Source: an uncultured Candidatus Saccharibacteria bacterium (lineage in GTDB: Bacteria; Patescibacteriota; Dojkabacteria; SC72). Taken from it: a stretch of DNA of 64,000 bases. Under the pieces are notes generated by a model, which searched no databases, had not been told where the DNA came from, and saw nothing but the letters and a program-made list of their open reading frames with translations. The position numbers and the translations under genes were made by a program. How positions within the stretch are numbered: position 1 is the stretch's first letter; each line of letters begins with the position of its first letter. The DNA lies in contig CAZSUV010000001.1 in NCBI GenBank assembly GCA_964610125.1, positions 45,599 through 109,598 of the forward strand, read 5' to 3'. This document shows, one piece after another, positions 2,624-42,253 of the stretch.

Positions 2624-3148
2624 TTAATACCTAACTTCTTGTGCTAATACTTTCCCCAATATAATCATACCCTTGAATGTCCTAATATTCTCAATCCTTA
2701 AACTATTATTATCCCTAATCAAAACCATATCATTGAGATTAATCTCGCTATTGGGAGAAACATATATAATACCCTTTGTTCCATCTGTGATACCCATATC
2801 CAAAGCAAAAGCCTCTGGATCAATACTCAAAACCCAATCAGGAGCATTGTAAAATAAAAAGGTATTAGATTTATTAAAAACAAAGTTATTAGGAACAGTA
2901 ATGAATAGTGGAATACGGCTGAAATTCATCTTAATACTCCCATCCGTAATATCATTTAGTAAATCAGAAGGAGTAGTATTCAAAGCCTTAGCTAAAGACT
3001 CTAACTGATTTAATGGAGAACTAACCCCACGCTCATACCTTGAAATCATTTCCCAAGTCTTACCAATCTTGTCAGCTAATTGTTGTTGGGTTAGATTTTG
3101 TCTCTCACGATATATCTTAATATTTTCACCGATATAATTGTTGTTCAT
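2624..3148 (-). CDS. XRE-family helix-turn-helix transcriptional regulator with C-terminal beta-rich (LexA/S24-like?) domain
   Basis: LTQQQLADKIGKTWEMISRYERGVSSPLNQLESLAKALNTTPSDL matches the HTH_XRE pattern. The C-terminal half lacks a clear GDSM S24 motif. Confidence 0.7.
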   Translation of the reverse strand: MNNNYIGENIKIYRERQNLTQQQLADKIGKTWEMISRYERGVSSPLNQLESLAKALNTTPSDLLNDITDGSIKMNFSRIPLFITVPNNFVFNKSNTFLFYNAPDWVLSIDPEAFALDMGITDGTKGIIYVSPNSEINLNDMVLIRDNNSLRIENIRTFKGMIILGKVLAQEVRY

Positions 3149-15144: not shown

Positions 15145-15145
15145 G

Positions 15146-16023: not shown

Positions 16024-16794
16024 ATGTATATACCTAAGAAAGTGGTTATGGATCTTACAAAATTTAGAGCATTAATGGGTTGTAATCTAACAGAGGAGAA
16101 AGCTAGGTATATTTGGGGTAAGAATTCTGTTAAGAATTCAGATATTTCTTTTGGAAAAGAACAATCAAATGAGTATGTAAATTCAAAGGTTGAGCTTGCT
16201 CAGAGGAATGTAAAATATTTACAGGTTGGGAACTTGGTTAAGTTCATTGGTGTTTCTGGTTCTGTAGCTGCGGGTTTTGCTAAGGAAGAGGATGATATTG
16301 ATGTTTTTGTGGTGGTTAGAAATGATACGGCATGGATATACAGGGCATTGTTGGTATTTAAGAATATTTTTCATCACAGGATTAGGACTAAGTGGGATGG
16401 GGAGAGGGTGAAGGATAAATTTTGTTTAAATTTGATATGTGAGGAGAGGGATGTGGTGTTTGAGGATGATATGTTTAACTTTCATGAATTAATGTATTTG
16501 GTTCCAATATTTAATGAAAGATATTTGAACTTTGTATATTCTCAGAATGTTTGGTTAAGAGAAATATATGGGGTTAAGGGGGAGTTGATGGTGAATAGGG
16601 TGAGTGTGAGTAAGAAAAAGAATTTGTTTTTTAAAGTTTTAAATTTCAAAGCTTTTTGTTTGCAATTAGTGTTTATGATTTTGTCTAAACATAGTCCGGA
16701 GATTCCTAGATTAAAAGAAAATTTTAAGAGAGGAAGGATTGAATTTTTTCCTAGGGATTACAAGGAGAAGAGGATGGAAGATTACTTAAAGTAA
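16024..16794 (+). CDS. polymerase-beta-superfamily nucleotidyltransferase
   Basis: GVSGSVAAGFAKEEDDIDVFVVV matches the hG[GS]x9-13[DE]h[DE]h NTase motif. The coding strand is extremely C-poor. Confidence 0.6.
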   Translation: MYIPKKVVMDLTKFRALMGCNLTEEKARYIWGKNSVKNSDISFGKEQSNEYVNSKVELAQRNVKYLQVGNLVKFIGVSGSVAAGFAKEEDDIDVFVVVRNDTAWIYRALLVFKNIFHHRIRTKWDGERVKDKFCLNLICEERDVVFEDDMFNFHELMYLVPIFNERYLNFVYSQNVWLREIYGVKGELMVNRVSVSKKKNLFFKVLNFKAFCLQLVFMILSKHSPEIPRLKENFKRGRIEFFPRDYKEKRMEDYLK

Positions 16795-21064: not shown

Positions 21065-22102
21065 TTAAATAGAATTCAAATCAATCAACTGTGCATGTTT
21101 CAATATCTCCTTAGGTAATTCATCCTTATTAATAATGGTTATAAACGTCTGTTGCTTCTTAATATTCTCCTCCCCAAATATCTTATGCGTATTCTTAGGA
21201 TCCAACTCTGAAGCAATATCATCTAACAAAAGAATAGGGTAGAACCCAAGCTCCTTGTTTAAAACATCTTGAACTCTAAATATCAAATTCCCAATAGCCA
21301 ACCTCTTCTCACCCCTAGAACCATACTTCTTAATATTCTTCTCAACAATAATCTCCCAATCATCCCTCTGAGGACCAATATTAGAACAACCAGTAACAAT
21401 ATCCCTCTTCTTAGCATCCTCAATACATTCCTCTAAATCCTTGTCATTAGATTTAATATATTCCAAAGCAAACCCATCTGAAGAAAGTTCATCAACCAAT
21501 TCCAATCTCTTAGTTTGAATAATCTTAGCAAGATTAACAAACTCATTAGTCCAGAAATTAAGTTGAGTATCATTACGCGCGATAATACCCTGTTCATAGA
21601 ACTTCTTAGCTAACTTCTTAAGATATGCATTCCTCTGTCTTAAAACCTTCCTAAATTGAGCCAAAGTATCATTGTATTCATAGTCGATTTGGGAAATAAC
21701 CTCATCAAGAAAATCTCTCCTTCTAGATGGAGAAATCATTAAAATCTCAATCTGTTCAGGATTAAATATCGTAGAAGCATTACTCTGAAAAAACTTCTTA
21801 GGCGTAGTATTCTGGTTATCTATCTTACAAACCCTACGGCTATGATCTTTGAAAAACGCAAACAGATGCTCATCAGTAGCAATCTCAACCCTAGCAAATT
21901 TATCCTCCTCATTTTGAGTATTGTTAACAAACTCATCTGATACGGCCCATGGAGATTTGCCGTTAGTAAGAAGATATATAGCTTCAAGAATAGTACTTTT
22001 CCCTTGCGCATTATTTCCATACAACACAACAATATCCTTCTCAATATCAATCTGAACATCTTCAAACCTTCTGAAATTTGTTAACTTAATGCTTTTAATC
22101 AT
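21065..22102 (-). CDS. recF: DNA replication and repair protein RecF
   Basis: N-terminus IKSIKLTNFRRF...LYGNNAQGKSTILEAIYLL, signature GSRGEKRLA, Walker B LLLDDIASELD. Confidence 0.8.
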   Translation of the reverse strand: MIKSIKLTNFRRFEDVQIDIEKDIVVLYGNNAQGKSTILEAIYLLTNGKSPWAVSDEFVNNTQNEEDKFARVEIATDEHLFAFFKDHSRRVCKIDNQNTTPKKFFQSNASTIFNPEQIEILMISPSRRRDFLDEVISQIDYEYNDTLAQFRKVLRQRNAYLKKLAKKFYEQGIIARNDTQLNFWTNEFVNLAKIIQTKRLELVDELSSDGFALEYIKSNDKDLEECIEDAKKRDIVTGCSNIGPQRDDWEIIVEKNIKKYGSRGEKRLAIGNLIFRVQDVLNKELGFYPILLLDDIASELDPKNTHKIFGEENIKKQQTFITIINKDELPKEILKHAQLIDLNSI

Positions 22103-23913
22103 TATGTTTTCAATATAGCTAAGAATGCTTCTTGAGGAATGTTTACCTTTCCAATCATTTTTAGTCTAGCTTTACCCTTTTTCTGTTTTTTAAGAAGTTT
22201 TAATTTTCTTGAATAGTCACCACCATATAGTTTGGAGGTAACGTCTTTTCTAAATGCACTAATATCTTCTCTAGCTATGACCTTGGAGTTAATAGCTGCT
22301 TGTAATGGGATTGGGAACTGTTGTCTTGGTATAGCTTTCTTCATCTCTTCAAGTAGCTTTGCAGCTTTGTCTCTAGCATAGTCTCTTACTTCTAAGAAAC
22401 TTAATGCTGGTACTTCCTCATACTTTACCAATACTGATACTTTAACAATATCTGCAGGGAAGAAATCTATGAATTCATATTCCATTGATGCATATCCACT
22501 TGAGATATTCTTCATCTGATCGAAGAAGTTTGAGATCAAAGAGGCTAGGGGAATGTCATATTCAAGAATGATATATTGATCTCGCATCTGCATATCACTC
22601 TGACTATGTGTTAGATATTTGGTATTTACATATTCACCCCTTCTAAACTGGCAAAGTTTCATTAAGTCTCCCATATATTGTGATGGGGTTAATAGCTCGA
22701 TTCTTACCCATGGTTCTCTAATCTCCTTTACCAATGATGTATCCGGCATCTCCTGTGGTGTCTGTATCTTCAATTCTTCTCCTGTATTAGTGGTGACCTC
22801 GTACTCGACTGTAGGGGCGGTAATTATGAGGTTGACATCATATTCCCTTTCTAATCTTTCTTGAATTATATCCATATGTAGGAGCCCCAAGAAGCCACAT
22901 CTAAACCCTGATCCAAGTAAGTTAGATCTCTGATCTGAGAATGTTAATGAAGCATCATTTAAAGCTAATTTACTTAATCCTGTTTTAAGGTTGTCGTAGT
23001 CCTCAGAATCAATGGGGAAGAAGGTTGCAAAGATATTTGGCTTTGGAGCTTTGTATCCATCTAGAGGAATAGTATCTGGATCATCTGAGATGGTATCTCC
23101 AACTGTAAAGTAACTGATATCTTTCAAACCTGTAGCAATATATCCTACTTCTCCAACATTAAGTTCTCCAGTTTCTTCCAAATCTGGGGTAAACAATCCA
23201 ACCTCTGTAGGTTTAAATTTCTCTTTTCTTTGTAATATGTGTAATGGAGTAGGTTTCCCATGTACATGTTTAACATGTCCATCGAAGATTCTTACTGCGA
23301 CAACTACACCTCTATGCTCATCGTAGAAGGAATCAAAGATTAATGCTTTAAGTGGAGCTGCGTTAGTTCCTTTTGGATTTGGTACTCTTTCGACAATCGC
23401 ATTTAGGAGTTTGTCTACATTTTCACCAGTTTTTCCAGATACTTTAATGATTTCATCTCTTGAGAATCCTAAAAGATCTTCAATTTCCTTTTCTCTTTCT
23501 TCAACTTTTACTCCAGGTAAATCAATCTTGTTTAATACAGGGATTAATTTCAAGCCTAAATCTAAAGCCTTTTTAGTATTGGAAAGTGTCTGTGCTTGTA
23601 TACCTTGGCTTGCATCTACGAGTAGGATTGCGGCCTCACATGCGGCTAATGATCTGGATACCTCATAGGAGAAATCTACATGTCCTGGGGTATCAATTAA
23701 GTTAAGCTTGTAACCTTTCCAATGCATTGTACAGGCTTGTAATTTGATGGTTATACCTTTCTCTTGTTCTAGATCCAATCTATCAAGAACTCTGTCCTTA
23801 TTTTTCTCATGGGATACATCGGTATGTGTAGCTTCTATCATCCTATCTGCTAAGGTAGACTTCCCATGATCTATATGGGCAATTATTGAAAAGTTACGAA
23901 TTTTTTCTAACAT
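22102..23913 (-). CDS. lepA: elongation factor 4 (LepA)
   Basis: NFSIIAHIDHGKSTLADR, DTPGHVDF, LepA-specific C-terminus GKVNIPQEAFLAILK. Confidence 0.9.
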   Translation of the reverse strand: MLEKIRNFSIIAHIDHGKSTLADRMIEATHTDVSHEKNKDRVLDRLDLEQEKGITIKLQACTMHWKGYKLNLIDTPGHVDFSYEVSRSLAACEAAILLVDASQGIQAQTLSNTKKALDLGLKLIPVLNKIDLPGVKVEEREKEIEDLLGFSRDEIIKVSGKTGENVDKLLNAIVERVPNPKGTNAAPLKALIFDSFYDEHRGVVVAVRIFDGHVKHVHGKPTPLHILQRKEKFKPTEVGLFTPDLEETGELNVGEVGYIATGLKDISYFTVGDTISDDPDTIPLDGYKAPKPNIFATFFPIDSEDYDNLKTGLSKLALNDASLTFSDQRSNLLGSGFRCGFLGLLHMDIIQERLEREYDVNLIITAPTVEYEVTTNTGEELKIQTPQEMPDTSLVKEIREPWVRIELLTPSQYMGDLMKLCQFRRGEYVNTKYLTHSQSDMQMRDQYIILEYDIPLASLISNFFDQMKNISSGYASMEYEFIDFFPADIVKVSVLVKYEEVPALSFLEVRDYARDKAAKLLEEMKKAIPRQQFPIPLQAAINSKVIAREDISAFRKDVTSKLYGGDYSRKLKLLKKQKKGKARLKMIGKVNIPQEAFLAILKT

Positions 23914-30462: not shown

Positions 30463-30480
30463 AGCGGGGCAGGACTAAAA

Positions 30481-31470
30481 TTATCTAAGATACTGATTTA
30501 CATTGTTGTTATGTTCTGCTGCTGTTCTGGCATAGTGCATAACCCCAGTTAGATCACTAATGAAGTAATAGTATGTTGAGTTTACAGGATTTCTTGCAGC
30601 ATTTATGGATTCTAGACCTGGATTGCAAATAGGAGTAGGTGGGAACCCTGCCACAATTCGAGTATTGTATGGATTATTAGCTTTCAAGTCAGCATCTGTA
30701 ATCTTGCTTTCATCCCAAGTCTTAAGATAGTAAAGAATTGTAGTATCTAGCCCTAGTTGCCATCCTTCATTGTACCTTTTTAGTATTATTCCGGTTATCA
30801 TTGCCCTATCGGTTGCTGTTCTACCTTCTTTTTCAGCCAAACTAGCTAAGATAATTGTTTGATATGAGTCATTTACTCCAACCTTAGTCTTAAATGTTCC
30901 AACAAGTCTAGTAGCTATATCTTTTTCAGTAACATCTGATGCAAATGCATATTTGTCAGGGAAGAGATATCCTTCCAAATCTTTAACATCTGAGTTTAAT
31001 CCAAATGTAGCTATGAAAGTTTGGTCTGTAGTTAAAGCTAAGAATGTATCTTTTGAGAATGTCGCTCCAATATTCTTTACTAATATATCTGCAATTTCAT
31101 CCTTTCTTAAACCTTCCGGTATTGTTACCCATATTTCTTGATCTTTACCGTTTTGTAATGTTTGGAAGATTTCAATAATATTTAAATTCTTAGGAATATT
31201 GTATGTCCCAGCTTGTAATTTGGAAGCAAGTTTGTTTAATCTAAGATATATTTTGGAATAGTTGACCCAATTAGGATTGATCAATCCTTGATCTACTAGA
31301 GACTGTAATATATCTGGAGCGGATTCACCATCTGCGATTGTTAATACTACTTTGTCAGAGCTTTCACTATTTGCTGTTTTTAACGCATGTGTGTAATCAA
31401 GCTTGATGATTACTCCAGCGATGACTACGGTTATTAATGCGAGGAGAAAAATTCTTACAATACTCTTCAT
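30481..31470 (-). CDS. mltG: endolytic murein transglycosylase MltG (YceG-like)
   Basis: N-terminal TM; YNTRIVAGFPPTPICNPGLESINAARNP matches the YceG signature. Confidence 0.8.
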   Translation of the reverse strand: MKSIVRIFLLALITVVIAGVIIKLDYTHALKTANSESSDKVVLTIADGESAPDILQSLVDQGLINPNWVNYSKIYLRLNKLASKLQAGTYNIPKNLNIIEIFQTLQNGKDQEIWVTIPEGLRKDEIADILVKNIGATFSKDTFLALTTDQTFIATFGLNSDVKDLEGYLFPDKYAFASDVTEKDIATRLVGTFKTKVGVNDSYQTIILASLAEKEGRTATDRAMITGIILKRYNEGWQLGLDTTILYYLKTWDESKITDADLKANNPYNTRIVAGFPPTPICNPGLESINAARNPVNSTYYYFISDLTGVMHYARTAAEHNNNVNQYLR

Positions 31471-31474
31471 TTAT

Positions 31475-31903
31475 CTAGTGTTTTGAATTTAAAAATTCTT
31501 GTAAAAATACTGTTGCTGCTATTTTGTCTATCTTGTTCCTGAATCCTTTTGTGTTCTGTCCTGAAGATATTAACATATTTTCTGCTGAAGTTGTAGAAAA
31601 ACTTTCGTCGTACAGAATGATTGGTAGATCAGTGTTTTCTTTGAGTTTATATTCGAATTGGGTGACATGTTTTTGAGTTGTATTGTGCTTCTCTATGAAG
31701 GCTTGTGGGTATCCTAAAAGGATTGTTTTTACTCTGTATTCTTCACAGATTTCCAATATCTGTTTAATGATATCTGTTTGTCCATGATGTTCGGTTATGG
31801 ATAATACTTCTAAGGGGGATGCTATGATTCCCTTTGAATCGGATATTGCTAATCCGAAGTGTTTTTTCCCGTAATCTATGGCTAGGATTGGGTATTCAAT
31901 CAT
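31475..31903 (-). CDS. ruvX: Holliday junction resolvase-like RuvX/YqgF
   Basis: ILAIDYGKKHFGLAISD at the N-terminus; 142 aa. Confidence 0.8.
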   Translation of the reverse strand: MIEYPILAIDYGKKHFGLAISDSKGIIASPLEVLSITEHHGQTDIIKQILEICEEYRVKTILLGYPQAFIEKHNTTQKHVTQFEYKLKENTDLPIILYDESFSTTSAENMLISSGQNTKGFRNKIDKIAATVFLQEFLNSKH

Positions 31904-31904
31904 A

Positions 31905-33653: not shown

Positions 33654-33686
33654 AAGGGAGATTATATCAATTTAAGCATACAGAAT

Positions 33687-35852
33687 CTATTCCTTGGTTG
33701 TTGATGCTTCTTCTTGTTCTACCTGTTGTATTTGTTCATATATTGAAGCTAAGTCTTCTCCAACATTTAGATCTACATTTAGATCTGGTTCTGGTGGAGT
33801 AGGAGGAGTATTTTCAACTACAGGAGTAGTAGGAGCAATATTTTCTTCTGCTTGGATTGGAGCTGGTTCTTCAGCTGGAATTGGTTTTGGAGTAGGTGTT
33901 GGAACAACTACTTCTTTCTCTACCACAGGTTCAGGAACTATTTCCTCTTTCACTGGTTCTGGTGTAACTTCTTCAACAACTGGTTCTGGTTCAACTGCAA
34001 CCTCTTCGATTGGTTCAGGAATAGGATCAACCTTTGGTTCCTCTACAGGAATTGGAGTTTGTATAGTCATTGTAGATTCCTTTGGAACAGGAGCAGCATA
34101 GTTATCCCAAACATCTGTAGTTGGTTTTGCTTCTTCAACAGGTGTCTCTACTAAACTTGTTACTTCTGATTCAGTCGGTGTAAATGCAGGAATAGGTTCC
34201 GTAGGAAGAGTAGGAATATATCCACCATTCTGTGGAGCATCCTCTTGTTTGTACTGCTCTTCTTTCCAGACCTTAAATATGATTATTGGCGCTACTATTG
34301 CTGCAATGATTACTAATATTCCAACACCAATGATTATTAATGTCCTCTGACTTATCTCCATTCCCAATATCTTTACATATCCCTCAGCCACAGTTTCATC
34401 GGATTGAATTGTAAATGTCCAAGACTTAGTTACAGATTTACCATTGGAATCTTCAAAATATATCTCCATCTTGTGTAATCCAGTAGTAAGATCTTCTGAA
34501 GGTTGATATATGATTGTATGTTCATGATCAGAGATCTGGTTGATGCTTACATCACTACTTACATCCTTGTCATCAAGCTTTACTAATATACTTTCCTCAT
34601 CTATGGTTGCATTAGTTCCCGCAATTATGGTTGCTTTGGTTGTAACCTGTTTGTTCTGAACAGTATCCGTACTGTTTGGAGACATATTTATGACTTGTGG
34701 ATCAGCTATGACCACAACATCATCCTCAACTGGTTTTGTAGAAGTTCCACTTACAACTATCTCTGGTGAAAGCCCAATACCTGTTAATGAAGGACTCTGG
34801 TTGTCGCTAGCTCTAAGGATTGCTTTGTAATTACCTGGTTCTAAGTTAGTAGTATCTATGATGTATGATGTCGTCTTTGAAGAAATATTGTTGTTGATCA
34901 TTACCCAATCAGTTTGATCAGTTGGATTTTGACTTACATACAACTCATACTTAGTTATTTCATTTAAATCAGTTGCTTCCCATGATATTTTCAAGGATTG
35001 GCCTCTGTCTACTCTTGTACTCGAAACAGGCGAGAGAACTTTAACATTTGGAATATCATTGGTTGCAGGACTTACACTTACTACCCAAGTCTGTGAGGCT
35101 AAGTGCTTACTGTATCCATCATGAATGAATACATTAGCAAGGTAGCTTGCAGGAGTATCTGTTGAACCTTGGAATTTGATTGTTAATTTACCATTAGAAC
35201 CATCTTCAATGATTGTTGGTTTTAACCATGTAGCCCCTGGGGTGAATGAGTAACTGTAGTTAATATGGTCACCATCAATATCTAATGCAGTAAGGGTATA
35301 TTCATACACTATTCCTGTCTTGATATCTTGTGATGGCTTGGATCCTGCTGGAACAGATGTAAATTCAGGGATCAAGTTGCTAGTCATAGCTTTCAAACCT
35401 AGAATGTCATATTCACTACTGATTTTACATGCTACACTTCCACCTCCAACTTTAGAGATGAGACCTAGCATATCTACAGTTCCAGATTTCATTGGTGTAA
35501 ATTTGAAGCTAGTAGCAAGTGAAGTAGGGGATTTGGTAAATTCTTCAGTATGGATTGTATTTCCCGTCGAGTCAGTTATTTTTAATGAAGCAATTCCAGC
35601 ATCTTTTAACGTAGCATCTACCTGGATTGTAATCTCTTTCCCAACCTCTAAGGTATATGGATTAACATTTGGAAGAGATATGACGCAAGGGTTTTCATCA
35701 CTAACAGTAATGCTATCAAAAGCCATATTTCGGATATCAAATGACCCATTTATGACTCCCCATGTGACTAAAGGTATTGAGAGCAACAAAAAGAATGTGG
35801 AATATATTACAAAAAGTGACTTGGTTTTTCGTGGGGCATTTCGAATCTTCAT
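33687..35852 (-). CDS. large bitopic surface protein: signal peptide, ~490-aa extracellular beta-rich region, single TM, ~190-aa Pro/Glu/Val-rich cytoplasmic tail
   Basis: N-terminal signal LFVIYSTFFLLLSIPLVTWG; TM helix LIIIGVGILVIIAAIVAPIIIF then KVWKEE; tail contains APTTPVVENTPPT. Confidence 0.6.
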   Translation of the reverse strand: MKIRNAPRKTKSLFVIYSTFFLLLSIPLVTWGVINGSFDIRNMAFDSITVSDENPCVISLPNVNPYTLEVGKEITIQVDATLKDAGIASLKITDSTGNTIHTEEFTKSPTSLATSFKFTPMKSGTVDMLGLISKVGGGSVACKISSEYDILGLKAMTSNLIPEFTSVPAGSKPSQDIKTGIVYEYTLTALDIDGDHINYSYSFTPGATWLKPTIIEDGSNGKLTIKFQGSTDTPASYLANVFIHDGYSKHLASQTWVVSVSPATNDIPNVKVLSPVSSTRVDRGQSLKISWEATDLNEITKYELYVSQNPTDQTDWVMINNNISSKTTSYIIDTTNLEPGNYKAILRASDNQSPSLTGIGLSPEIVVSGTSTKPVEDDVVVIADPQVINMSPNSTDTVQNKQVTTKATIIAGTNATIDEESILVKLDDKDVSSDVSINQISDHEHTIIYQPSEDLTTGLHKMEIYFEDSNGKSVTKSWTFTIQSDETVAEGYVKILGMEISQRTLIIIGVGILVIIAAIVAPIIIFKVWKEEQYKQEDAPQNGGYIPTLPTEPIPAFTPTESEVTSLVETPVEEAKPTTDVWDNYAAPVPKESTMTIQTPIPVEEPKVDPIPEPIEEVAVEPEPVVEEVTPEPVKEEIVPEPVVEKEVVVPTPTPKPIPAEEPAPIQAEENIAPTTPVVENTPPTPPEPDLNVDLNVGEDLASIYEQIQQVEQEEASTTKE

Positions 35853-35869
35853 TGTATATATAATAAGCG

Positions 35870-37219
35870 TTATTTGTTGGTTTGTGCAAGTTGATTATTA
35901 ATATCTGTCTCTGCCTTCTTTAATGCAGTCTGAGTATCTTCACCATCTTCAACTATGCTAGTTATTGCTTCATTTAAAGTAGCCTTTACGAATGATTCAT
36001 CACCCATCTGCCATGAGATCATTTTGGGAGCAGAGGTTGCAAGTGCAGCGCCGTATGAATTTGTGGCTAATTCTGCATTTAATTCTACCAATGAATATGG
36101 CTCTCCAAATGCTCTGATCTTTGCAGCATTTGAATACAAAGTTTTTTGTTGTTCTTTTTGAGCTAAGAAGGCTACAAAATCCCAAGCCGCTTTTGGATTT
36201 GCACTATTCTTACTTACGGCTTCTGCCCAATATGTAGAGTAGTAGATTGGATCCTCATTAGCAGAAAGCTGAGGAAGAGTTGCCATTCCAAATTCAATTG
36301 TTGGTGCTGACTGGATTATCTCAAATGCTCTCCAACTTGGAGCTATAAACATTGCGAGTTTGCCTTGGAAGAACATGTTTAAATCTGTACCTAGGCTTGA
36401 ATCCCAGGTTGCATCTTTACCTGAAGCGAAGCTAATATATGTATCCATAACGCTTTCTGCGCTGGTGGTATTTAAAGTTACAGCGGTTTTGGTTTCATCA
36501 ATAATATCGATACCTTGAGAAAGCATTAAGAAAGAGAGTATTTCTGCTGCATGACTTACATTTTTAGATGTCCCCATAGCCAATCCTGCTTGTGTGATTT
36601 TCCCTGTTGTAGATTTCTTTGTTAATTTTTGTGCTAGTTCTACGAATGAATCCCAATCTGTTGGAGTGGTAGTTACACCTGCGGTTGCGAGTAGTTGTTT
36701 GTTGTAGAATACGACCAATCCGTCTATTTCCAATGGCATTGCATATATGTTTCCATCTTTTGCAGTTAAATCTGCTGTAGCGGTTGGGTAGAATGTTGAG
36801 GCATATTTTTCTTTTGTCATTACTGTTGAAGGTAGCGCGTAGAGATATTTGTAGTACTTTGGAATCCATGTATTATGGATTCTGAAGATATCTGGAGCTG
36901 GTTCAGAGGAGGTAGTTGATTGTTGTAGGCGTGTGTAAAGTCTACTCTCGTAATTGGTATATGTCTGCTGAGAGTAGAGGATAGTAACGCCTTTGTGGGC
37001 TGATTCATACTCATCTATTAGGGGTTGCATTACTGTTGATGGTTCCCAAAGTCCCCAATATACCAATTCTCCAGTCCCAACATCCGATGTATTATCATTA
37101 TTCTTGCTATTTGCATTCACTAGAAGTATTACAACAGTTGTAACTACAACTACAATTAACGCTATGAAGCCGAGTAGTAAGAAAGTCTTTTTCTTAGGGT
37201 CTATGGTCTTAAAATCCAT
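35870..37219 (-). CDS. ABC transporter extracellular solute-binding protein (family 1, carbohydrate-type)
   Basis: N-terminal TM/signal; VYWGLWEPSTVMQPLIDEYE... is typical of MalE-like SBPs; 449 aa. Confidence 0.6.
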   Translation of the reverse strand: MDFKTIDPKKKTFLLLGFIALIVVVVTTVVILLVNANSKNNDNTSDVGTGELVYWGLWEPSTVMQPLIDEYESAHKGVTILYSQQTYTNYESRLYTRLQQSTTSSEPAPDIFRIHNTWIPKYYKYLYALPSTVMTKEKYASTFYPTATADLTAKDGNIYAMPLEIDGLVVFYNKQLLATAGVTTTPTDWDSFVELAQKLTKKSTTGKITQAGLAMGTSKNVSHAAEILSFLMLSQGIDIIDETKTAVTLNTTSAESVMDTYISFASGKDATWDSSLGTDLNMFFQGKLAMFIAPSWRAFEIIQSAPTIEFGMATLPQLSANEDPIYYSTYWAEAVSKNSANPKAAWDFVAFLAQKEQQKTLYSNAAKIRAFGEPYSLVELNAELATNSYGAALATSAPKMISWQMGDESFVKATLNEAITSIVEDGEDTQTALKKAETDINNQLAQTNK

Positions 37220-37239
37220 TATTGTTTGTATTTAAAATT

Positions 37240-38034
37240 TTAAATCTGTCTTTCAGCGACTACTATTAATCTCTTTGTCCCAATCCCGAGTGGCCAACAT
37301 GTCATCATTGTTATTGTTTCTTTGTTATTTTGTGATTCTAGTATGGAAAAATCATCAGGAGAAACAATCTTTTTACTTCTTACGATATATTTTAATACCT
37401 TCTCATCTTTTTTAATATCTACTTCTTGCCCAATATCTATATTACCCAATCTAGAGAAGATTGTCTCGGGTAAGTTTTGGTGGCTGTCAAAGAAGCTTTC
37501 TACCGCACTATGGCCATATATGAAGGCATTGCCTCCATCTCCTGGAAGTGGGGTTCCTTTGAAATGTGCTAATCCTTGCTTGAGGTATTGGTTGTATACC
37601 TTCTCGTTATAGCTATCTACATTTGCCGATATTTTAATATTCGCTATCCCTATACTTGCAATATCGATATACATTGGTTTGTCATATTCCTTGTTAACAA
37701 CAATATCCTTCTGTGTTTGTGTTACTGGATCGTAATATTGTGAATCTGATACATTTCCTAACTGTTGTGAGAGGTTTGCAAAGTAGCTTTTGCCGGGATC
37801 GTAGTAGGCGAGTTGGGATTCAATATATGTTTGGTATGATTCGGGGACTGGTTCTACCTTTGAATCTGCTCTTGCTTGTTCAATCATTCCATCGATATAT
37901 GACTTTGCTAGAGGGATTACTTGACTCAATATGATTATGAGGCCAATTACAGCTAGTACTACAGAAATATATATTCTTGTTTTTTTTACTTTGGTTTGGC
38001 TTTCGGTTTGTATGTTCCAATCGGGATTTTGCAT
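37240..38034 (-). CDS. sortase (transpeptidase)
   Basis: N-terminal TM; active-site His in NAFIYGHSA; catalytic Cys in ITMMTCWP (TLxTC-like); Arg in TKRLIVVAERQI. Confidence 0.75.
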   Translation of the reverse strand: MQNPDWNIQTESQTKVKKTRIYISVVLAVIGLIIILSQVIPLAKSYIDGMIEQARADSKVEPVPESYQTYIESQLAYYDPGKSYFANLSQQLGNVSDSQYYDPVTQTQKDIVVNKEYDKPMYIDIASIGIANIKISANVDSYNEKVYNQYLKQGLAHFKGTPLPGDGGNAFIYGHSAVESFFDSHQNLPETIFSRLGNIDIGQEVDIKKDEKVLKYIVRSKKIVSPDDFSILESQNNKETITMMTCWPLGIGTKRLIVVAERQI

Positions 38035-38114
38035 AACGATATATTACCAGATTTAAAGGACAATTGGAGGACACCTCTAGCAAATTGAAATGGCGTTTGC
38101 TAAAATACTTGGCT

Positions 38115-39212
38115 ATGGAAAAACGAGATTACTATGAAGTATTAGGTGTAGACAAAAAGGCTACTCAAACAGAGCTTAAAAAGGCTTACAGAAACCTTGT
38201 TAAGAAATATCATCCTGATTCTAACAAAGATGATGGCGCTGAAGAAAAGTTTAAAGAAGTTCAAGAGGCATATGAGGTACTTTCGGATGAGTCTAAGCGT
38301 TCTGCATATGATCAGTATGGTCATGCGGGTACTGCTGGTTTTAATCCTGGGGCTGGTGGATATTCTGATTTTAGTGGTTTTGATGGTAATACTCCTTTTG
38401 ATATGGGGGATATTTTTAATTCTTTCTTTGGTGGAGGTAATAGCGGTTTTGATTTTGGATTTGGTAATTCTTCTGGTAGAAGACAAGCACAGGGTGGTGC
38501 AGATATTCGTTACAGAGTGAGATTGAAATTTGATGAGGCTATGGAGGGTGGTGAGTATGAGATTAAGGTTCAGAGGGATGAGACTTGTGAGCATTGTGAG
38601 GGTACTGGTAGTGAGGATGGTAAGGTTGAGACTTGTTCTGCGTGTCATGGGTCTGGTCAGGAGAGGCAGGTTAGAAACACGATACTAGGTCAGATTGCTG
38701 TTATGGGTGTGTGTTCTAAGTGTAAGGGTACTGGTAAGAGCATTAAGAATGAGTGTAAGGTTTGTGGCGGTTCTGGTGTTAATGCTACTTCTGAGAAGGT
38801 TAAGGTGAAGATTCCTGCGGGTGCATATGATGGTATGATTTTGAGATTTAGAGGTGGTGGAAATGCGGGTAACAATGGTAGTGCTCATGGGGATTTGTAT
38901 GTAGAGATTGAGGTTGAGACTTCTTCTAAGTTTGAGAGAAGAGGTAATGATATTTATTCTGATGTTGATATTCCTATTCATATGGCGGTATTGGGTGGCA
39001 AGGTTGATGTTGATACTGTTGCTGGGAATGTGGTTTTAAAGATTCCTAATGGTACTCAATCTGGGTCTATATTTAGATTAAAGGGTAAGGGTGCATATAT
39101 TTTGAATGGTGAGGGTAAGAGAGGGGATCATTATGTGAGGATAAATATACATGTACCTGCTAGATTGAACAGGAAAGAGAAAGAATTGTGGGAGGAGTTG
39201 AGTAAGGTTTAA
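38115..39212 (+). CDS. dnaJ: chaperone DnaJ
   Basis: J-domain DYYEVLGV...[14 protein letters not shown], Gly/Phe-rich region, four CxxCxGxG zinc-finger repeats. Start moved to the ATG at 38115 within the 38064 ORF. Coding strand is strikingly G+T-rich and C-poor. Confidence 0.9.
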
Positions 39213-39237
39213 TTCTACCTTGTGATATACTTTTTGT

Positions 39238-39759
39238 ATGACAGATACAGGAGAACAAAATATCATTTCTGATGTAGAGTCTGTGGATTTAACAACCTCT
39301 AGTAGCGAACCAACGGACAATATCTCCAAAATTCTGAAGTACAAGGAACAAGGATATGTCTTTCATGGATCTTCACACTCAGATATTGCTATTTTAGAAC
39401 CTAGACGAGGAAATGACGTCTCGGGGGATACTTTCAACACCGATACTGCTATTTACGCATCACCTAATCCTCAGGTTTGTATTATGGGTGTAGTTAAACA
39501 AAAAGAGGTTAATGGGACTTGGAAAGCTGGTTGTTATGAAAAAGATCTTTTAGTTGCTGAGATACCTAAATCCTGGAGACAGGTAGTAGAAAAAGGGATT
39601 GGAACTCTTTATGTTTTACCTCCAGAATCTTTTTCTACAGATAAACCAGACAATTGGCAAGTAAAGAGTAATACAAGTGTAAAACCAATAGACAAAATAC
39701 CTGTTACATTTAATGATTTTATAGCATTGGGCGGGGAAGTAATTTGGACTGAAGAATAG
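39238..39759 (+). CDS. hypothetical protein (173 aa)
   Basis: ORF only. Confidence 0.4.
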   Translation: MTDTGEQNIISDVESVDLTTSSSEPTDNISKILKYKEQGYVFHGSSHSDIAILEPRRGNDVSGDTFNTDTAIYASPNPQVCIMGVVKQKEVNGTWKAGCYEKDLLVAEIPKSWRQVVEKGIGTLYVLPPESFSTDKPDNWQVKSNTSVKPIDKIPVTFNDFIALGGEVIWTEE

Positions 39760-39775
39760 AAAAAGGACTTATGAA

Positions 39776-40231
39776 TTAACTAGCATTCTTACTCATCCAT
39801 TCGTTATACGTTGTAAGTGCCTCTTGCTCTAATTCTGGTATTTGTATAATTTCAATCTCTTCATTGAACTCTTTGATGATTTGTTCATGTCTGAGAGGAC
39901 TTTCATAACAAAGTTTTGTATCAACTTCCTCTTTTTTAACTACATATACTATTCTTCTAATACCAGCCCAATATGCTCTTGAAATACACATTAAACAAGG
40001 TTGCATAGAGCAATATAGAGTACAGTCAGTAAGCTGGGAATCAAGCTTATTTATAGCTTCATCAATTGTTTTTGATTCAGCATGGAAGTTTATCTTCGGA
40101 TATTTTGCAGAAGTATTTTGCGCAATAACTTCATCATTTTTTACAATTACAGCTCCTGCGGGAAAAGCGCCTTCGTCAAAAGATTTTTTTGCCATTTCAA
40201 TTGCTAATTGAGCATACTTGTAATCATTCAT
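39776..40231 (-). CDS. CMP/dCMP-deaminase-family zinc deaminase (TadA-like)
   Basis: HAES... and SMQPCLMC zinc-binding motifs (H(A/C)E, PCxxC). Confidence 0.65.
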   Translation of the reverse strand: MNDYKYAQLAIEMAKKSFDEGAFPAGAVIVKNDEVIAQNTSAKYPKINFHAESKTIDEAINKLDSQLTDCTLYCSMQPCLMCISRAYWAGIRRIVYVVKKEEVDTKLCYESPLRHEQIIKEFNEEIEIIQIPELEQEALTTYNEWMSKNAS

Positions 40232-40300
40232 GATCTAATTATATCACGATATAATTATGATATAATCTCCACATATAGATTATTTAATCAAACCATATTC

Positions 40301-41656
40301 ATGGAATTACTAACAAGAACCCATATAGGGGAATTAGCACAACACATAGGACAAATCATTAGAATAAGAGGAAGAGTAGATACCATAAGAGATCAAGGCA
40401 AAATCATATTCATAATGGTAAGAGACAGATCAGGAATAGTACAAACAGTAGCATGGTTTGGAGATGAAGAAGTATTCAAAACCGCAAAAACCCTAACCGC
40501 AGAATCAGTAATAGACATAACAGGAGAAGTAAAAGAAGCAAAACAAGTAGCATGCGGATATGAAATAGGGATAAAAACATTAAACATAGACTCATTAGCA
40601 CAAACCCCATTACCAATAGCAATAGAAGCAGAACATACAGACAATGTAACTGCATTAGACAAAAGACTAGACTCAAGATGGGTAGACCTTAGAAGTAAGA
40701 AGAACCAGCTTATGATGGACGTAGCTACCACAATGGGAGCATCATTCAGACAATATTGTGTAGATAACGGATGTGTAGAAATCAATGCACCAAGAATAAT
40801 CAGTGCCGCAAGTGAATCAGGAGCAAACGTATTCGAAGTAAAATACTTCGACAGAAAAGCATACCTAGCTCAGTCACCACAGTTCCACAAACAAATGGGA
40901 ATAGCTTCAGACCTGGAAAGAGTCTTTAACATGGGACCAGTATTTAGAGCAGAAAAATCATTCACAACCAGACACTTAACCGAATACACCAGCTTCGATG
41001 TAGAACTAGGATATATCGATTCATTCAAAGATGTATGTAAATATGAGCAAGAAATGATCAAGTACATGCTTGCAAATGTAAAAGCAAAGTATGGAGACAA
41101 AGTAAAAGAAGTATTTGGAATCGATATTAAGGTACCAGAAGGAGACTTTCCATATCTTTCAGTAGCAGAAGCTAAAGAAAAATTAGCAAAAGCAGGAGTA
41201 GAAAGTAAAGATACAGGAGACTTCTCACCAGAAGAAGAAAGAGCAATGGGAGAGATAATGGAGAAGGAAACCGGATGTGAATTTGTCTTTGTTGTAGATT
41301 ACCCACACGCAAGAAGAGCCTTCTACCATATGAAGAATGCAGAGAATCCAAAACTAGCATTAGGCTATGACCTATTCTGGAAGGGTATCGAAATTACAAC
41401 AGGAGCACAAAGAGAACATAGATTAGAAGAATTAAAAAAGAATGCAACAGAAAGAGGTATGGCATTAGATGGACAGCTCAAAGATTACCTTGAATATTTT
41501 GAATATGGATGTCCTCCACATGGTGGCTTTGCAATTGGAACAGAAAGAGTCCTAATGAAGATGTTAGGCTTTGGAAGTATCCTAGAAACCACATATCTAC
41601 CTAACACTCCAAACAGACTAGGAAAGCTACTCTCTAAAATCTCTAAAAGCAAATAA
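40301..41656 (+). CDS. aspS: class IIb aminoacyl-tRNA ligase, Asp-tRNA ligase (archaeal/non-discriminating type) or Asn-tRNA ligase
   Basis: OB-fold N-terminus GRVDTIRDQGKIIFIMVRDRSG, motif 2 FRAEKSFTTRHLTEYTSFDVE, motif 3 GGFAIGTERVLM. Start at the ATG at 40301. Strong A-ending codon bias. Confidence 0.75.
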   Translation: MELLTRTHIGELAQHIGQIIRIRGRVDTIRDQGKIIFIMVRDRSGIVQTVAWFGDEEVFKTAKTLTAESVIDITGEVKEAKQVACGYEIGIKTLNIDSLAQTPLPIAIEAEHTDNVTALDKRLDSRWVDLRSKKNQLMMDVATTMGASFRQYCVDNGCVEINAPRIISAASESGANVFEVKYFDRKAYLAQSPQFHKQMGIASDLERVFNMGPVFRAEKSFTTRHLTEYTSFDVELGYIDSFKDVCKYEQEMIKYMLANVKAKYGDKVKEVFGIDIKVPEGDFPYLSVAEAKEKLAKAGVESKDTGDFSPEEERAMGEIMEKETGCEFVFVVDYPHARRAFYHMKNAENPKLALGYDLFWKGIEITTGAQREHRLEELKKNATERGMALDGQLKDYLEYFEYGCPPHGGFAIGTERVLMKMLGFGSILETTYLPNTPNRLGKLLSKISKSK

Positions 41657-41678
41657 ATTAAGTCTTTGGGAAATAGTT

Positions 41679-42113
41679 ATGAAATCATACAGAGCTGGTG
41701 GAATAGTTGTTAATACTGAAGGGAAAATTGCATTAGCAAATGAACATCTGTGGGGATTCCCAAGGGGAGGTGTTGATGAGGAAGAAGATTATATAACCGC
41801 AGCAAAGAGGGAGGTTTTAGAAGAAACTGGACTAGAAGAATTTACATCTGTTGATGAATTAGGCGTTTATGAAAGATATCCATCAGGTATTACAAAAGAT
41901 ACTCCTGGAGCATATCCTATGGAAATTCATATGTTTTTGTTTCAAACTGATTTTACGGGAGACCTTCATCCTGTAGATAAAAATGTCAAAGAGGCAGGAT
42001 GGTTCACATACGAAGATGCTGTAGAAAAATTGACTGATGAGACAGACAAAGAATTCTTAACGAATAACTGGGAAAGAATTCAGGAGATAAATAGCGAGAT
42101 TAAGAATGTATAA
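41679..42113 (+). CDS. NUDIX hydrolase
   Basis: Nudix box GGVDEEEDYITAAKREVLEETGL. Confidence 0.8.
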   Translation: MKSYRAGGIVVNTEGKIALANEHLWGFPRGGVDEEEDYITAAKREVLEETGLEEFTSVDELGVYERYPSGITKDTPGAYPMEIHMFLFQTDFTGDLHPVDKNVKEAGWFTYEDAVEKLTDETDKEFLTNNWERIQEINSEIKNV

Positions 42114-42175
42114 ACGGATAGACCTAGAACTGCTCTATGCTTTGTGATATACTACTAATTGAAAGTAATACAAAG

Positions 42176-42211
42176 AGGAGGGTGGGGATGAAAATTCTCA
42201 CCTTTTTTTTT
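42176..42211 (+). terminator. putative intrinsic terminator downstream of the NUDIX gene
   Basis: GGTGGGG / TCTCACC stem (6-7 bp including G-U pairs) with loop ATGAAAAT, followed by a T9 run. Confidence 0.5.
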
Positions 42212-42253
42212 GAAAGAACTATTTTAAATATAATTTTTTATAATAATTAAACC

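What the first reader, a model, noticed from the sequence alone, without database searches (positions are those of the whole stretch)
38115..41656. Sharp synonymous-codon dichotomy between neighbouring same-strand genes (dnaJ G/T-ending vs Asp-tRNA ligase A-ending)
dnaJ is built almost entirely from GGT/GCT/ACT/GTT/GAG/AAG/GAT codons (C-poor, G+T-rich coding strand). The aminoacyl-tRNA ligase gene about 1 kb downstream on the same strand uses GGA/GCA/ACA/GTA/GAA/AAA/ATA/AGA almost exclusively (T-poor at third positions). Strand or replication bias cannot explain this because both genes are on the + strand. Possible explanations are expression-level-linked codon selection, transcription-associated C-to-T deamination of the non-template strand, or mosaic gene origin.
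Basis: seen in the sequence. Interest (0 to 1): 0.5.

Follow-up and report, generated by a model that had tools for sequence, protein, structure and literature searches.

The report
Gene-by-gene G/T versus A/C codon polarisation
In this small Dojkabacteria (candidate phyla radiation) genome, a few ordinary vertically inherited genes (dnaJ, recF) use almost only G/T-ending codons while the nearby Asp-tRNA ligase uses A/C-ending ones; sister species keep the same gene-specific bias, the usual explanations (strand, foreign origin, high expression) do not account for it, and the cause is unresolved.

Summary
dnaJ (38115-39212) uses G/T-ending synonymous codons at 80% of sites. The Asp-tRNA(Asn) ligase (40301-41656, same strand) uses them at 23% (chi2=252, p=8e-57; 19 of 20 codon families shift the same way). 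They are the two extremes of 55 genes in the window.

It is not a two-gene oddity. recF (21065-22102) matches dnaJ although its start overlaps the stop of an ordinary lepA.

All three genes are native Dojkabacteria genes in conserved synteny. The bias recurs in sister species whose synonymous sites are saturated, so it is maintained and is not left over from transfer. Its strength falls with distance from the window lineage. Other Dojkabacteria polarise other genes (rsmB, alaS).

The shift is uniform over codon families and independent of sequence context and of protein conservation. It is slightly visible in amino-acid replacements, and the two extremes are near reverse complements. Ribosomal-protein and translation-factor genes are ordinary.

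My best reading (about 40%) is a gene-scale, strand-asymmetric mutational pressure added to ordinary replication skew. It may be linked to the individually promoted, leaderless transcription units of this genome. Selection on decoding (about 25%) and mosaicism within the phylum (about 15%) remain open. The polarity of the ligase gene is unexplained.

The parts
38115..39212 (+). dnaJ (type I). The most G/T-ending gene: 80% of synonymous sites, z=+13.3. The first ~30 codons are exempt (0.45).
38098..38106 (+). Extended -10 box TGcTAAAAT, ending 8 nt before the dnaJ ATG. No Shine-Dalgarno sequence; implies a leaderless or near-leaderless transcript.
39238..39759 (+). Hypothetical gene 25 nt after dnaJ. 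Ordinary codon usage (z=+1.1). It has its own TGaTATACT box 6 nt before its ATG.
39776..40231 (-). Cytidine/dCMP-type (TadA-like) deaminase gene, divergent from the ligase. Ordinary codon usage (z=+1.0).
40238..40266 (.). Back-to-back perfect TGnTATAAT boxes: 40238-40246 on the - strand for the deaminase, 40258-40266 on the + strand for the ligase (about 34-nt leader).
40301..41656 (+). Non-discriminating Asp-tRNA(Asn) ligase. The most A/C-ending gene: 23% G/T-ending, z=-10.5. Strongest in the first ~120 codons (0.07-0.14).
21065..22102 (-). recF (TIGR00611 above cut-off). The second G/T-ending extreme (77%, z=+12.3), on the opposite strand to dnaJ. TATATT box at 22112-22117, inside the lepA 3' end.
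22102..23913 (-). lepA. Its stop overlaps the recF start (ATAATG). Ordinary to mildly A/C-ending (40%, z=-3.0). Usage switches within 20 codons of the junction.
16024..16794 (+). Nucleotidyltransferase-domain gene, G/T-ending (73%, z=+8.8). It is the convergent neighbour of recF in relatives.
2624..3148 (-). XRE-family helix-turn-helix gene, G/T-ending (69%, z=+5.9).
31475..31903 (-). ruvX, A/C-ending (25% G/T-ending, z=-5.3). Among the most A/C-ending genes of its neighbourhood in several relatives.
37240..38034 (-). Sortase gene, divergent neighbour of dnaJ, A/C-ending (z=-4.5; -7.0 in L087). Together with dnaJ it forms a 2-kb stretch whose + strand is G/T-rich.

Best explanation
The dnaJ/ligase contrast is the most visible case of a wider property of Dojkabacteria. 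Third codon positions are polarised, gene by gene, along the G/T ('keto') versus A/C ('amino') axis, which is the axis of strand-asymmetric mutation.

All Dojkabacteria loci examined carry an ordinary replication-type skew: dnaJ-strand genes have 0.50-0.63 G/T-ending codons and opposite-strand genes 0.37-0.45. On top of it, a few genes or short blocks sit at two limiting compositions that are near mirror images. One has about T.67 G.13 A.17 C.03 at four-fold sites, the other about A.63 C.19 T.17 G.02.

I infer that these genes are under a persistent, local, strand-asymmetric directional pressure that acts on bases rather than on particular codons. The likeliest form is mutational: one DNA strand is preferentially damaged or left unrepaired. 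For dnaJ, recF, w16024 and w2624 the enriched strand is the coding (non-template) strand, and each has its own -10 box placed for a leaderless transcript, so a transcription- or R-loop-type exposure fits their direction and boundaries. The ligase has the opposite polarity, which its own sense transcription cannot explain.

Shown: the bias, its significance, vertical inheritance, persistence across saturated divergence, uniformity, near mirror symmetry and phylogenetic gradient. Inferred: that the pressure is mutational, and that it is tied to transcription units.
For: (1) The same axis dominates all genes of the window. PC1 explains 30% of variance, and G/T-ending versus A/C-ending loadings differ with p=5e-11.

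(2) All synonymous families shift together, including AGA to AGG and TTA to TTG. Leu TTR versus CTN also leans the same way (counts, not tested). The shift does not depend on the neighbouring base.

(3) The pooled extremes are near reverse complements: G/T-type genes A.17 C.03 G.13 T.67, A/C-type genes A.63 C.19 G.02 T.17, with about 800-1000 sites each from several genes and lineages (my pooling of the per-context rows).

(4) Amino-acid replacements lean the same way: recF 44:20 (p=0.004) and most L012 and L087 dnaJ comparisons. The window's own dnaJ comparisons are mixed, and control genes are balanced.

(5) Conserved and variable residues show the same bias, and the ribosomal-protein and translation-factor genes are ordinary. 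Both argue against classical translational selection.

(6) The bias is maintained. Window versus L085, L083 and L012 four-fold identity equals the composition expectation (0.40 vs 0.42, 0.48 vs 0.40, 0.38 vs 0.40), yet dnaJ is 0.65-0.79 and recF 0.64 G/T-ending there.

(7) The bias grades with relatedness. dnaJ.80.79.74.65.58.51. recF.77.64.52.42. Ligase.23.30.40.51.

(8) Other lineages polarise other genes, and some transitions fall inside genes: L099 rsmB .80 (z=+16) with a ramp through rsmE and pnp; an L099 five-gene block at .18-.28; L098 alaS .21 (z=-13); in L085 only the first 120 ligase codons are biased.

(9) Leaderless-type -10 boxes precede 24 of 55 genes, including all six most G/T-ending ones. 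Genes with such a box are more G/T-ending (0.51 vs 0.44, p=0.05).

(10) Recent substitutions still differ between neighbours. The per-site rates I derived from the singleton counts imply an equilibrium near 0.64 G/T-ending for dnaJ and near 0.40 for the sortase gene (counts).

(11) Candidate phyla radiation genomes with extreme strand disparity are on record (PMC7143001).
Against: - The ligase has a perfect extended -10 box and no antisense promoter-like box, yet it is A/C-rich on its coding strand, which is the wrong sign for sense-transcription asymmetry.
- Many genes with equally good promoter boxes are unbiased.
- The ribosomal-protein genes, presumably highly transcribed, are unbiased.
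- No terminator is seen between dnaJ and the unbiased gene 25 nt downstream.
- A magnitude of T:A about 5:1 at four-fold sites is far beyond known transcription-associated skews (my knowledge).
- The recurrence of dnaJ as the G/T-ending outlier in at least six lineages, and of alaS as an A/C-ending outlier, suggests something gene-specific and perhaps selective.
- Among close strains, dnaJ shows more G/T-to-A/C than A/C-to-G/T changes (41:18). That fits purifying selection on a preferred state, or relaxation, better than a stationary mutational equilibrium.
Confidence: 0.4

Rival explanations
1. Selection on decoding, acting on each ORF. With a reduced tRNA set, NNA and NNC codons are read by Watson-Crick pairing (U34 and G34 tRNAs), while NNG and NNU are read by wobble. 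On this view dnaJ, recF and some regulators are kept in 'wobble' codons (slow, low or conditionally translated, or resistant to a ribosome-dependent RNase that needs A or C at codon position 3). The aminoacyl-tRNA ligases are kept in 'cognate' codons.
For: - ORF-sharp switches occur at lepA/recF and at dnaJ/hypothetical gene.
- The bias is stable across saturated divergence.
- The same genes recur: dnaJ G/T-ending in at least six lineages, and alaS or the Asp ligase A/C-ending.
- The first ~30 dnaJ codons are exempt in every lineage, as expected for an initiation-region constraint.
- The excess of G/T-to-A/C recent changes in dnaJ (41:18) is what segregating unpreferred mutations would give.
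- The wobble geometry would act uniformly on all families.
- Ribosome-dependent toxins with codon specificity and 'selective translation' are described in the literature (PMC4931118).
Against: - S20/S15 and the translation-factor genes are not at the supposed optimal end.
- There is no difference between conserved and variable sites.
- Amino-acid replacements drift the same way.
- The extremes are near reverse complements.
- Different genes are polarised in different lineages, and some transitions fall inside genes.
- No tRNA genes were available to test the premise.
- No toxin gene was identified in the window.
Confidence: 0.25
2. Mosaicism within the phylum. Gene-sized tracts are repeatedly replaced by homologous recombination with alleles from other Dojkabacteria. 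In those donors this region has a much stronger replication skew, in the same or the opposite replicative polarity, so each tract carries the composition of its donor.
For: - Adjacent genes diverge very unevenly between near-conspecific genomes. Window versus L003: ruvX 99%, sortase 98%, dnaJ 96%, but lytR 76% and alaS 87%.
- recF and lepA give incongruent relationships: recF 89/78% but lepA 83/89% to the L083/L085 genome and the L093/L094 genome respectively. The closer recF allele is also the more G/T-ending one.
- Some tract boundaries fall inside genes (ligase in L085; rsmE/rsmB in L099).
- Strongly skewed lineages exist (L010, L099).
- The mirror-image extremes fit donors of opposite polarity.
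Against: - DnaJ identities follow the flanking genes, and biased alleles do not cluster. Window dnaJ is 66% identical to biased L012, against 67-70% to unbiased L089 and L005.
- The bias persists after synonymous saturation in several lineages, which would need repeated imports of the same genes.
- No sampled lineage has all co-oriented genes at 0.8.
- The ligase shows no domain-level identity break.
Confidence: 0.15
3. Ordinary replication skew with a polarity switch (terminus or origin) lying between dnaJ and the ligase. The same + strand would then be leading on one side and lagging on the other.
For: - To the left of dnaJ the + strand is consistently G/T-rich (- strand genes z<0, + strand genes z>0). 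To the right the polarity is lost.
- AT skew changes sign near 39-40 kb.
- The spot downstream of dnaJ varies between strains.
Against: - The AT-skew change coincides with the change of gene orientation.
- Genes to the right average about zero rather than reversed.
- recF is anti-polar inside the left block, next to lepA.
- The magnitudes (0.80 and 0.23) far exceed the regional effect (about 0.05-0.1).
- The hypothetical gene and the deaminase gene between the two are unbiased.
- In relatives nusA, infB and pnp keep the same polarity as dnaJ.
Confidence: 0.05
4. Recent horizontal acquisition of dnaJ (or of the ligase) from outside the phylum or from a phage or plasmid, not yet ameliorated.
For: The codon usage is atypical. 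Two of the lesser G/T-ending genes are of kinds often found on mobile elements: an XRE helix-turn-helix gene and a nucleotidyltransferase-domain gene.
Against: - The top 120 hits of DnaJ, RecF and the ligase run without a break from 96% down to 58-70% identity, and every organism name a source gives is Dojkabacteria or unclassified Patescibacteria/bacterium.
- Synteny is conserved.
- The bias is shared by species with saturated synonymous sites.
- There are no close viral relatives: 39% identity for DnaJ and none for RecF.
Confidence: 0.02

Closest known systems
Strand-specific codon usage in spirochaetes, chlamydiae and insect endosymbionts (Borrelia, Treponema, Chlamydia, Buchnera); from my own knowledge of the literature
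   Same: The axis is identical: G/T-ending codons in one class of genes and A/C-ending in the other. It affects all codon families and also amino-acid composition. A weaker effect of exactly this kind is present in all Dojkabacteria loci examined.
   Different: In those organisms the class is set by the leading or lagging strand. Here the extremes sit on both strands, differ between same-strand neighbours 1 kb apart and between genes whose stop and start codons overlap, and are much stronger than the regional strand effect.
Whole-chromosome G/C strand disparity in Microgenomates (Ca. Chazhemtobacterium Ch65, Collierbacteria, Beckwithbacteria; PMC7143001)
   Same: It is a candidate phyla radiation lineage with unusually strong strand-asymmetric composition (one strand 29.8% C against 15.0% G).
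   Different: That disparity is chromosome-wide and was reported for G/C only, with no A/T disparity. Here it is patchy, at gene scale, of both polarities, and mainly T versus A.
Transcription-associated mutational asymmetry: excess G+T on the coding strand of mammalian genes, and C-to-T on the non-transcribed strand in E. coli; from my own knowledge
   Same: The direction matches for dnaJ, recF, w16024 and w2624 (coding strand enriched in G+T). The extent is limited to what can be single transcription units. Non-synonymous sites are affected too.
   Different: Known effects are a few per cent, whereas here T:A is about 5:1. Loss of A, not loss of C, dominates. The ligase has the opposite sign. 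The ribosomal-protein genes are unaffected.
Atypical-codon 'alien' gene classes (for example class III genes of E. coli and B. subtilis); from my own knowledge
   Same: They are a minority of genes with codon usage far from the genomic norm.
   Different: The genes here are core genes (dnaJ, recF, aspS) with native phylogeny and synteny, and their bias is conserved across species.
Codon-biased selective translation: modification-tunable transcripts, and mRNAs that escape codon-specific ribosome-dependent toxins (PMC4931118 for the toxin side)
   Same: A small set of genes, partly stress or repair related, is written in a distinct synonymous 'dialect'.
   Different: No toxin, tRNA or modification evidence was found here. 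The shift is base-level, near mirror-symmetric, and hits different genes in different lineages.

Membership tests
Type I DnaJ/Hsp40 | J domain, Gly/Phe-rich linker, four CXXCXGXG zinc-finger motifs, DnaJ C-terminal domain | tested here: met
   PF00226 96 bits, PF00684 53 bits, PF01556 156 bits, all above their cut-offs. The cysteines are invariant in a 28-sequence alignment.
Non-discriminating Asp-tRNA(Asn) ligase (archaeal type) | Equivalog model score above cut-off; OB-fold anticodon-binding domain plus class II core without the bacterial insertion domain | tested here: met
   NF003483 459 bits (cut-off 353); TIGR00458 378 bits (cut-off 368); the bacterial aspS and asnS models score below their cut-offs; PF01336 and PF00152. 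Non-discriminating activity itself was not tested.
RecF | Equivalog model score above cut-off | tested here: met
   TIGR00611 226.8 bits (cut-off 172).
Replication-strand codon-usage dichotomy (Borrelia type) | A gene's G/T- or A/C-ending class is predicted by the strand it lies on | tested here: not met
   dnaJ and the ligase are both on the + strand; recF and lepA are both on the - strand and adjacent. A weak general strand effect does exist.
Replication-strand codon-usage dichotomy (Borrelia type) | The shift lies along the G/T versus A/C axis and affects all families and amino-acid composition | tested here: met
Recently transferred ('alien') gene | Foreign best hits or phylogenetic incongruence | tested here: not met
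   Top-120 hit lists run continuously from 96% identity downwards, and every named hit is Dojkabacteria or unclassified Patescibacteria/bacterium. Identities follow the flanking genes, except for recF within the clade.
Recently transferred ('alien') gene | Absent from the syntenic position in relatives; bias not shared by relatives | tested here: not met
   Synteny is conserved. The bias is shared by L087, L093, L085, L083 and L012 despite saturated synonymous sites.
Translational selection in highly expressed genes | Codon preferences shared with ribosomal-protein and translation-factor genes | tested here: not met
   S20+S15 are A.42 T.38; nusA/infB/pnp/lepA are A.50 T.37. Neither resembles dnaJ or the ligase. 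The reference set is small: 2 ribosomal-protein genes here and 7 in relatives.
Translational selection in highly expressed genes | Preferred codons enriched at conserved residues (Akashi test) | tested here: not met
   Mantel-Haenszel odds ratios 0.63-2.15; no Fisher test is significant for dnaJ, recF or the ligase.
Translational selection in highly expressed genes | Preferred codons match the tRNA gene complement | not testable with these tools
   No tRNA gene was found in the window or in 17 related loci. Whole genomes were not retrievable.
Transcription-associated strand asymmetry | G+T excess on the coding (non-template) strand | tested here: inconclusive
   Met for dnaJ, recF, w16024, w2624 and L099 rsmB. 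The sign is opposite for the ligase, which has a perfect promoter box.
Transcription-associated strand asymmetry | Extent coincides with the transcription unit and scales with transcription level | not testable with these tools
   Only sequence proxies were available. -10 boxes 5-9 nt before the starts of all six most G/T-ending genes are compatible with this. Promoter-box quality does not predict the bias. There are no expression data.

The most novel reading that the evidence does not exclude
Dojkabacteria may have a so far undescribed process that holds individual genes at one of two mirror-image synonymous compositions for long evolutionary times. It could be a gene-scale, strand-specific hypermutation or repair asymmetry. 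One possible form is a self-reinforcing R-loop or single-strand exposure on leaderless transcription units in a repair-poor genome. Alternatively it could be a true 'codon dialect' that partitions genes between wobble-read and cognate-read codons for selective translation.
Probability: 0.2. Interest if true: 0.8.

Novelty: new variant of a known kind. Interest (0 to 1): 0.5.

Why it matters
Codon-usage outliers are routinely read as signs of horizontal transfer or of high expression. Here core, vertically inherited genes hold extreme and opposite synonymous compositions for longer than synonymous sites take to saturate, side by side on one strand. If this is mutational, mutation spectra can differ several-fold between adjacent genes in reduced candidate phyla radiation genomes. 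That would affect transfer detection, binning, gene calling (long spurious antisense ORFs appear inside dnaJ), dN/dS estimates and phylogenetics in these lineages. If it is selective, it would be an unusually strong case of gene-specific codon control in a slow-growing symbiont. Either way, rare-variant spectra from existing metagenomes can test it.

Tried and rejected
- **mRNA folding.** Mean folding energy correlates with G/T-ending usage (rho=-0.58), as composition predicts. dnaJ (-22.1) and the ligase (-15.5) are not outliers.
- **In-CDS RNA thermometer occluding the 5' AUG of a leaderless dnaJ mRNA.** dnaJ ranks 4/55 for occlusion, but recF ranks 42/55 and w2624 55/55.
- **Motif avoidance (for example ACA-type RNase sites).** The shift is independent of flanking bases.
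- **Antisense overlapping genes.** The long antisense ORFs inside dnaJ (168 and 98 aa) and inside the ligase (130 aa) are mechanical by-products of depleting A3 or T3 (frame analysis).
- **Antisense transcription through the ligase gene.** There is no extended -10 box on the - strand inside it, and the deaminase gene that such a transcript would reach is unbiased.
- **Domain-level mosaic of the ligase.** There is no identity break along the protein.
- **Phage donors.** None found.
- **HrcA/CIRCE operator at dnaJ.** No match within 3 mismatches.
- **Shine-Dalgarno strength as a correlate.** It is essentially absent genome-wide.
- **Promoter and terminator consensus scans.** Counts were at or below chance and uninformative.
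- **tRNA complement.** No tRNA genes in any locus held.
- **dnaK, grpE, groEL of this lineage.** They could not be retrieved, so the 'stress regulon' idea was not tested. Only Bacilli-type loci carry dnaK next to dnaJ.

Full report
**1. What is there.**
The window is a 35-36% G+C stretch of a Candidatus Dojkabacteria (WS6, candidate phyla radiation) genome. The best hits of three of its proteins carry that name, and two species-level relatives are L003 (Loclat bin-19700) and L004 (WS6 bacterium GW2011_GWC2_36_7).

Gene identities:
- 38115-39212(+) is a complete type-I dnaJ.
- 40301-41656(+) is an archaeal-type non-discriminating Asp-tRNA(Asn) ligase.
- Between them lie a hypothetical gene (39238-39759, +) and a TadA-like deaminase gene (39776-40231, -).

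**2.
- Third positions: dnaJ A.16 C.05 G.25 T.54; ligase A.55 C.18 G.08 T.18.
- Four-fold sites: dnaJ T.72 and A.13; ligase A.74 and T.11. Two-fold purine codons are 73% against 21% G-ending. Two-fold pyrimidine codons are 11% against 48% C-ending.
- The direct contrast gives chi2=252, p=8e-57, with 19 of 20 families shifted the same way.
- After correcting for amino-acid composition, dnaJ (z=+13.3) and the ligase (z=-10.5) are the two extremes of 55 genes. They are also the extremes of the first principal axis of relative synonymous codon usage, which is the G/T- versus A/C-ending axis.
- In 82 dnaJ loci from other phyla no gene exceeds z=+6.8, and dnaJ lies between -4.2 and +3.0.

**3. It is not a two-gene phenomenon.**
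- recF (21065-22102, -) has the dnaJ composition (A.11 C.04 G.15 T.70; z=+12.3).
- A nucleotidyltransferase-domain gene (16024-16794, +) and an XRE-family gene (2624-3148, -) are lesser G/T-type members.
- ruvX and the sortase gene lean toward the ligase type.
- recF starts on the stop codon of lepA (ATAATG). lepA is ordinary (40% G/T-ending), and usage switches within 20 codons of the junction.
- G/T-type genes lie on both strands, so replication strand alone is excluded.

**4. Not foreign, not recent.**
DnaJ, RecF and the ligase each have hundreds of relatives at 59-96% identity, and every one that a source names by organism is Dojkabacteria or unclassified Patescibacteria/bacterium.

The order [- strand block ... 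sortase] dnaJ, nusA, infB, rpsO, pnp is conserved. A sub-clade has the ligase inserted between dnaJ and nusA.

| Genome | dnaJ z | ligase z | recF z | lepA z |
|---|---|---|---|---|
| L087 | +14.1 | -6.9 | | |
| L093/L094 | +14.5 | | +3.7 | -2.6 |
| L085/L083 | +8.8 | -1.5 | +7.3 | -5.3 |
| L090 | +4.2 | +2.0 | | |
| L088/L089 | +2.4 | | -1.1 | |

Four-fold sites at identical amino acids are saturated between the window and L085, L083 and L012: observed identity 0.40, 0.48 and 0.38 against 0.42, 0.40 and 0.40 expected from composition. The bias is therefore actively maintained. No close relatives occur on viral contigs.

**5. Character of the shift.**
- Every synonymous family moves in the same direction.
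- The shift is independent of the flanking bases and of whether the residue is conserved.
- Pooled four-fold compositions of G/T-type genes (A.17 C.03 G.13 T.67) and A/C-type genes (A.63 C.19 G.02 T.17) are close to reverse complements (pooled).
- Amino-acid replacements in biased lineages lean toward G/T-richer first and second codon positions: recF 44:20, p=0.004. Controls are balanced, and the window's own dnaJ comparisons are mixed.
- Loss of A3 (about -0.24), not loss of C3 (about -0.07), dominates in dnaJ, so simple C-to-T deamination is not enough.
- S20, S15, nusA, infB, pnp and lepA are ordinary, so neither extreme is the 'highly expressed' usage.
- The first ~30 codons of dnaJ stay at 0.28-0.48 G/T-ending in all lineages. 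The ligase bias is strongest in its first ~120 codons, and in L085 it is confined to them.

**6. A lineage-wide property.**
- All Dojkabacteria loci show a general strand effect: dnaJ-strand genes 0.50-0.63 against 0.37-0.45. Two other candidate phyla radiation loci show none (spread of z below 1).
- After removing the strand effect, the spread of z is about 1.3-3.0 in most Dojkabacteria loci and 4.0-4.5 in the window and L087.
- Other lineages polarise other genes: L099 rsmB (80% G/T-ending, z=+16, with a ramp through rsmE and the 3' end of pnp), an L099 five-gene block (18-28%), and L098 alaS (21%, z=-13).
- alaS is among the most A/C-ending genes of its neighbourhood in many lineages, and dnaJ among the most G/T-ending.

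**7. Genome architecture relevant to mechanism.**
- Shine-Dalgarno sequences are essentially absent.
- TATAAT-like boxes, often TGnTATAAT, pile up 5-9 nt before start codons in 23 of 55 genes.
- dnaJ, recF (box inside the lepA 3' end), w16024, w2624 and the hypothetical gene after dnaJ all have one. ORF-sharp boundaries may therefore also be transcript boundaries.
- Genes with such a box are more G/T-ending (0.51 vs 0.44, p=0.05), and the six most G/T-ending genes all have one.
- The ligase has a perfect box about 34 nt upstream and no antisense box within it.

**8. Recombination and current dynamics.**
- Adjacent genes differ greatly in divergence between near-conspecific genomes (99% to 76%), and recF and lepA give incongruent relationships. 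Gene-scale exchange within the clade is therefore real.
- Among the window, L003 and L004, dnaJ synonymous singletons run 41 G/T-to-A/C against 18 A/C-to-G/T. From these counts I derive a per-site preference of about 1.8-fold toward G/T (implied equilibrium about 0.64), against about 0.66-fold (about 0.40) in the neighbouring sortase gene (counts).
- The difference between neighbours is thus ongoing, but dnaJ is not becoming more biased at present.

**9. Interpretation.**
Simple strand bias, outside transfer, expression-linked optimal codons and plain C-to-T deamination are each contradicted.

The base-level, context-free, near mirror-symmetric and conservation-blind nature of the shift, its spill-over into amino-acid changes, and its occurrence in different genes in different lineages favour a local strand-asymmetric mutational pressure (confidence about 0.4). 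That pressure is possibly tied to individually promoted leaderless transcription units.

Weighing against this are the recurrence of the same genes, the sharp ORF boundaries, the ligase's 'wrong' polarity and the 41:18 excess. These keep selection on decoding (about 0.25) and mosaicism within the phylum (about 0.15) alive. A polarity switch of replication between the two genes is unlikely (about 0.05). Recent outside transfer is effectively excluded.

**10. Limits.**
- Only this 64-kb window and 20-kb loci of relatives could be read.
- No tRNA genes, no other stress genes, no expression data and no population data were available.
- ORFs were called mechanically (longest ORF, with starts curated for key genes).
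- The z scores use each locus as its own background.

Noticed in passing
window-wide; e.g. 38098-38106, 39223-39231, 40238-40246(-), 40258-40266, 22112-22117(-): Shine-Dalgarno sequences are almost absent. TATAAT-like boxes (12 with a TG extension) end 5-9 nt before the start codon in 23 of 55 genes. This suggests that a large share of mRNAs are leaderless and that many genes have their own promoter.
   Followed up: partly
window 39213-42253 compared with L005-L014, L085, L087, L089, L090, L093: The spot downstream of dnaJ is variable. Most relatives have dnaJ followed directly by nusA. A sub-clade has the Asp-tRNA ligase inserted there, with different companions (deaminase, Nudix, DUF6886, hypothetical genes). 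Strains L003 and L004 differ again.
   Followed up: partly
window 29026-38034 vs L003; window 21065-23913 vs L083, L094: Adjacent genes diverge very unevenly between near-conspecific genomes (ruvX 99%, sortase 98%, but lytR 76% and alaS 87%). recF and lepA give incongruent relationships. Both indicate gene-scale homologous recombination among Dojkabacteria.
   Followed up: partly
L099:17804-18847(-), L099:667-7213(-), L098:3455-5227(-): Other Dojkabacteria have other extreme genes: rsmB at 80% G/T-ending (z=+16), a five-gene block at 18-28%, and alaS at 21% (z=-13). Some transitions fall inside genes.
   Followed up: partly
window 163-462 and 1283-1582: A 300-nt direct repeat at 96% identity, spaced 1120 nt apart. 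It suggests tandem paralogous copies of the surface-protein gene at 887-1924; any upstream copy is cut by the window edge.
   Followed up: no
window 38142-38648(-), 38685-38981(-), 40393-40785(-): Long antisense ORFs (168, 98 and 130 aa) lie inside dnaJ and the ligase gene. They follow mechanically from the lack of A3 (or T3) in the sense codons and could mislead gene callers.
   Followed up: yes
window 12081-15946(-): A type IV secretion or conjugation-like cluster (PrgI family, TraC-like, VirB4-like ATPase of the CD1110 family) is conserved in the same position in relatives, so it is probably a resident system rather than a mobile element.
   Followed up: no
window 39776-40231(-): A 151-aa cytidine/dCMP-type deaminase (weak TadA and MafB19-like matches, below the TadA cut-off) sits immediately upstream of the ligase and divergent from it. 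It holds that position in the two genomes with the strongest ligase bias (window, L087), not in L085 or L090 (n=4). The gene itself is unbiased.
   Followed up: partly
window 3345-3818(-): A 157-aa ORF with an HELCH (HExxH-like) motif lies upstream of the XRE-family gene. It has no Pfam match at E<=0.01.
   Followed up: no
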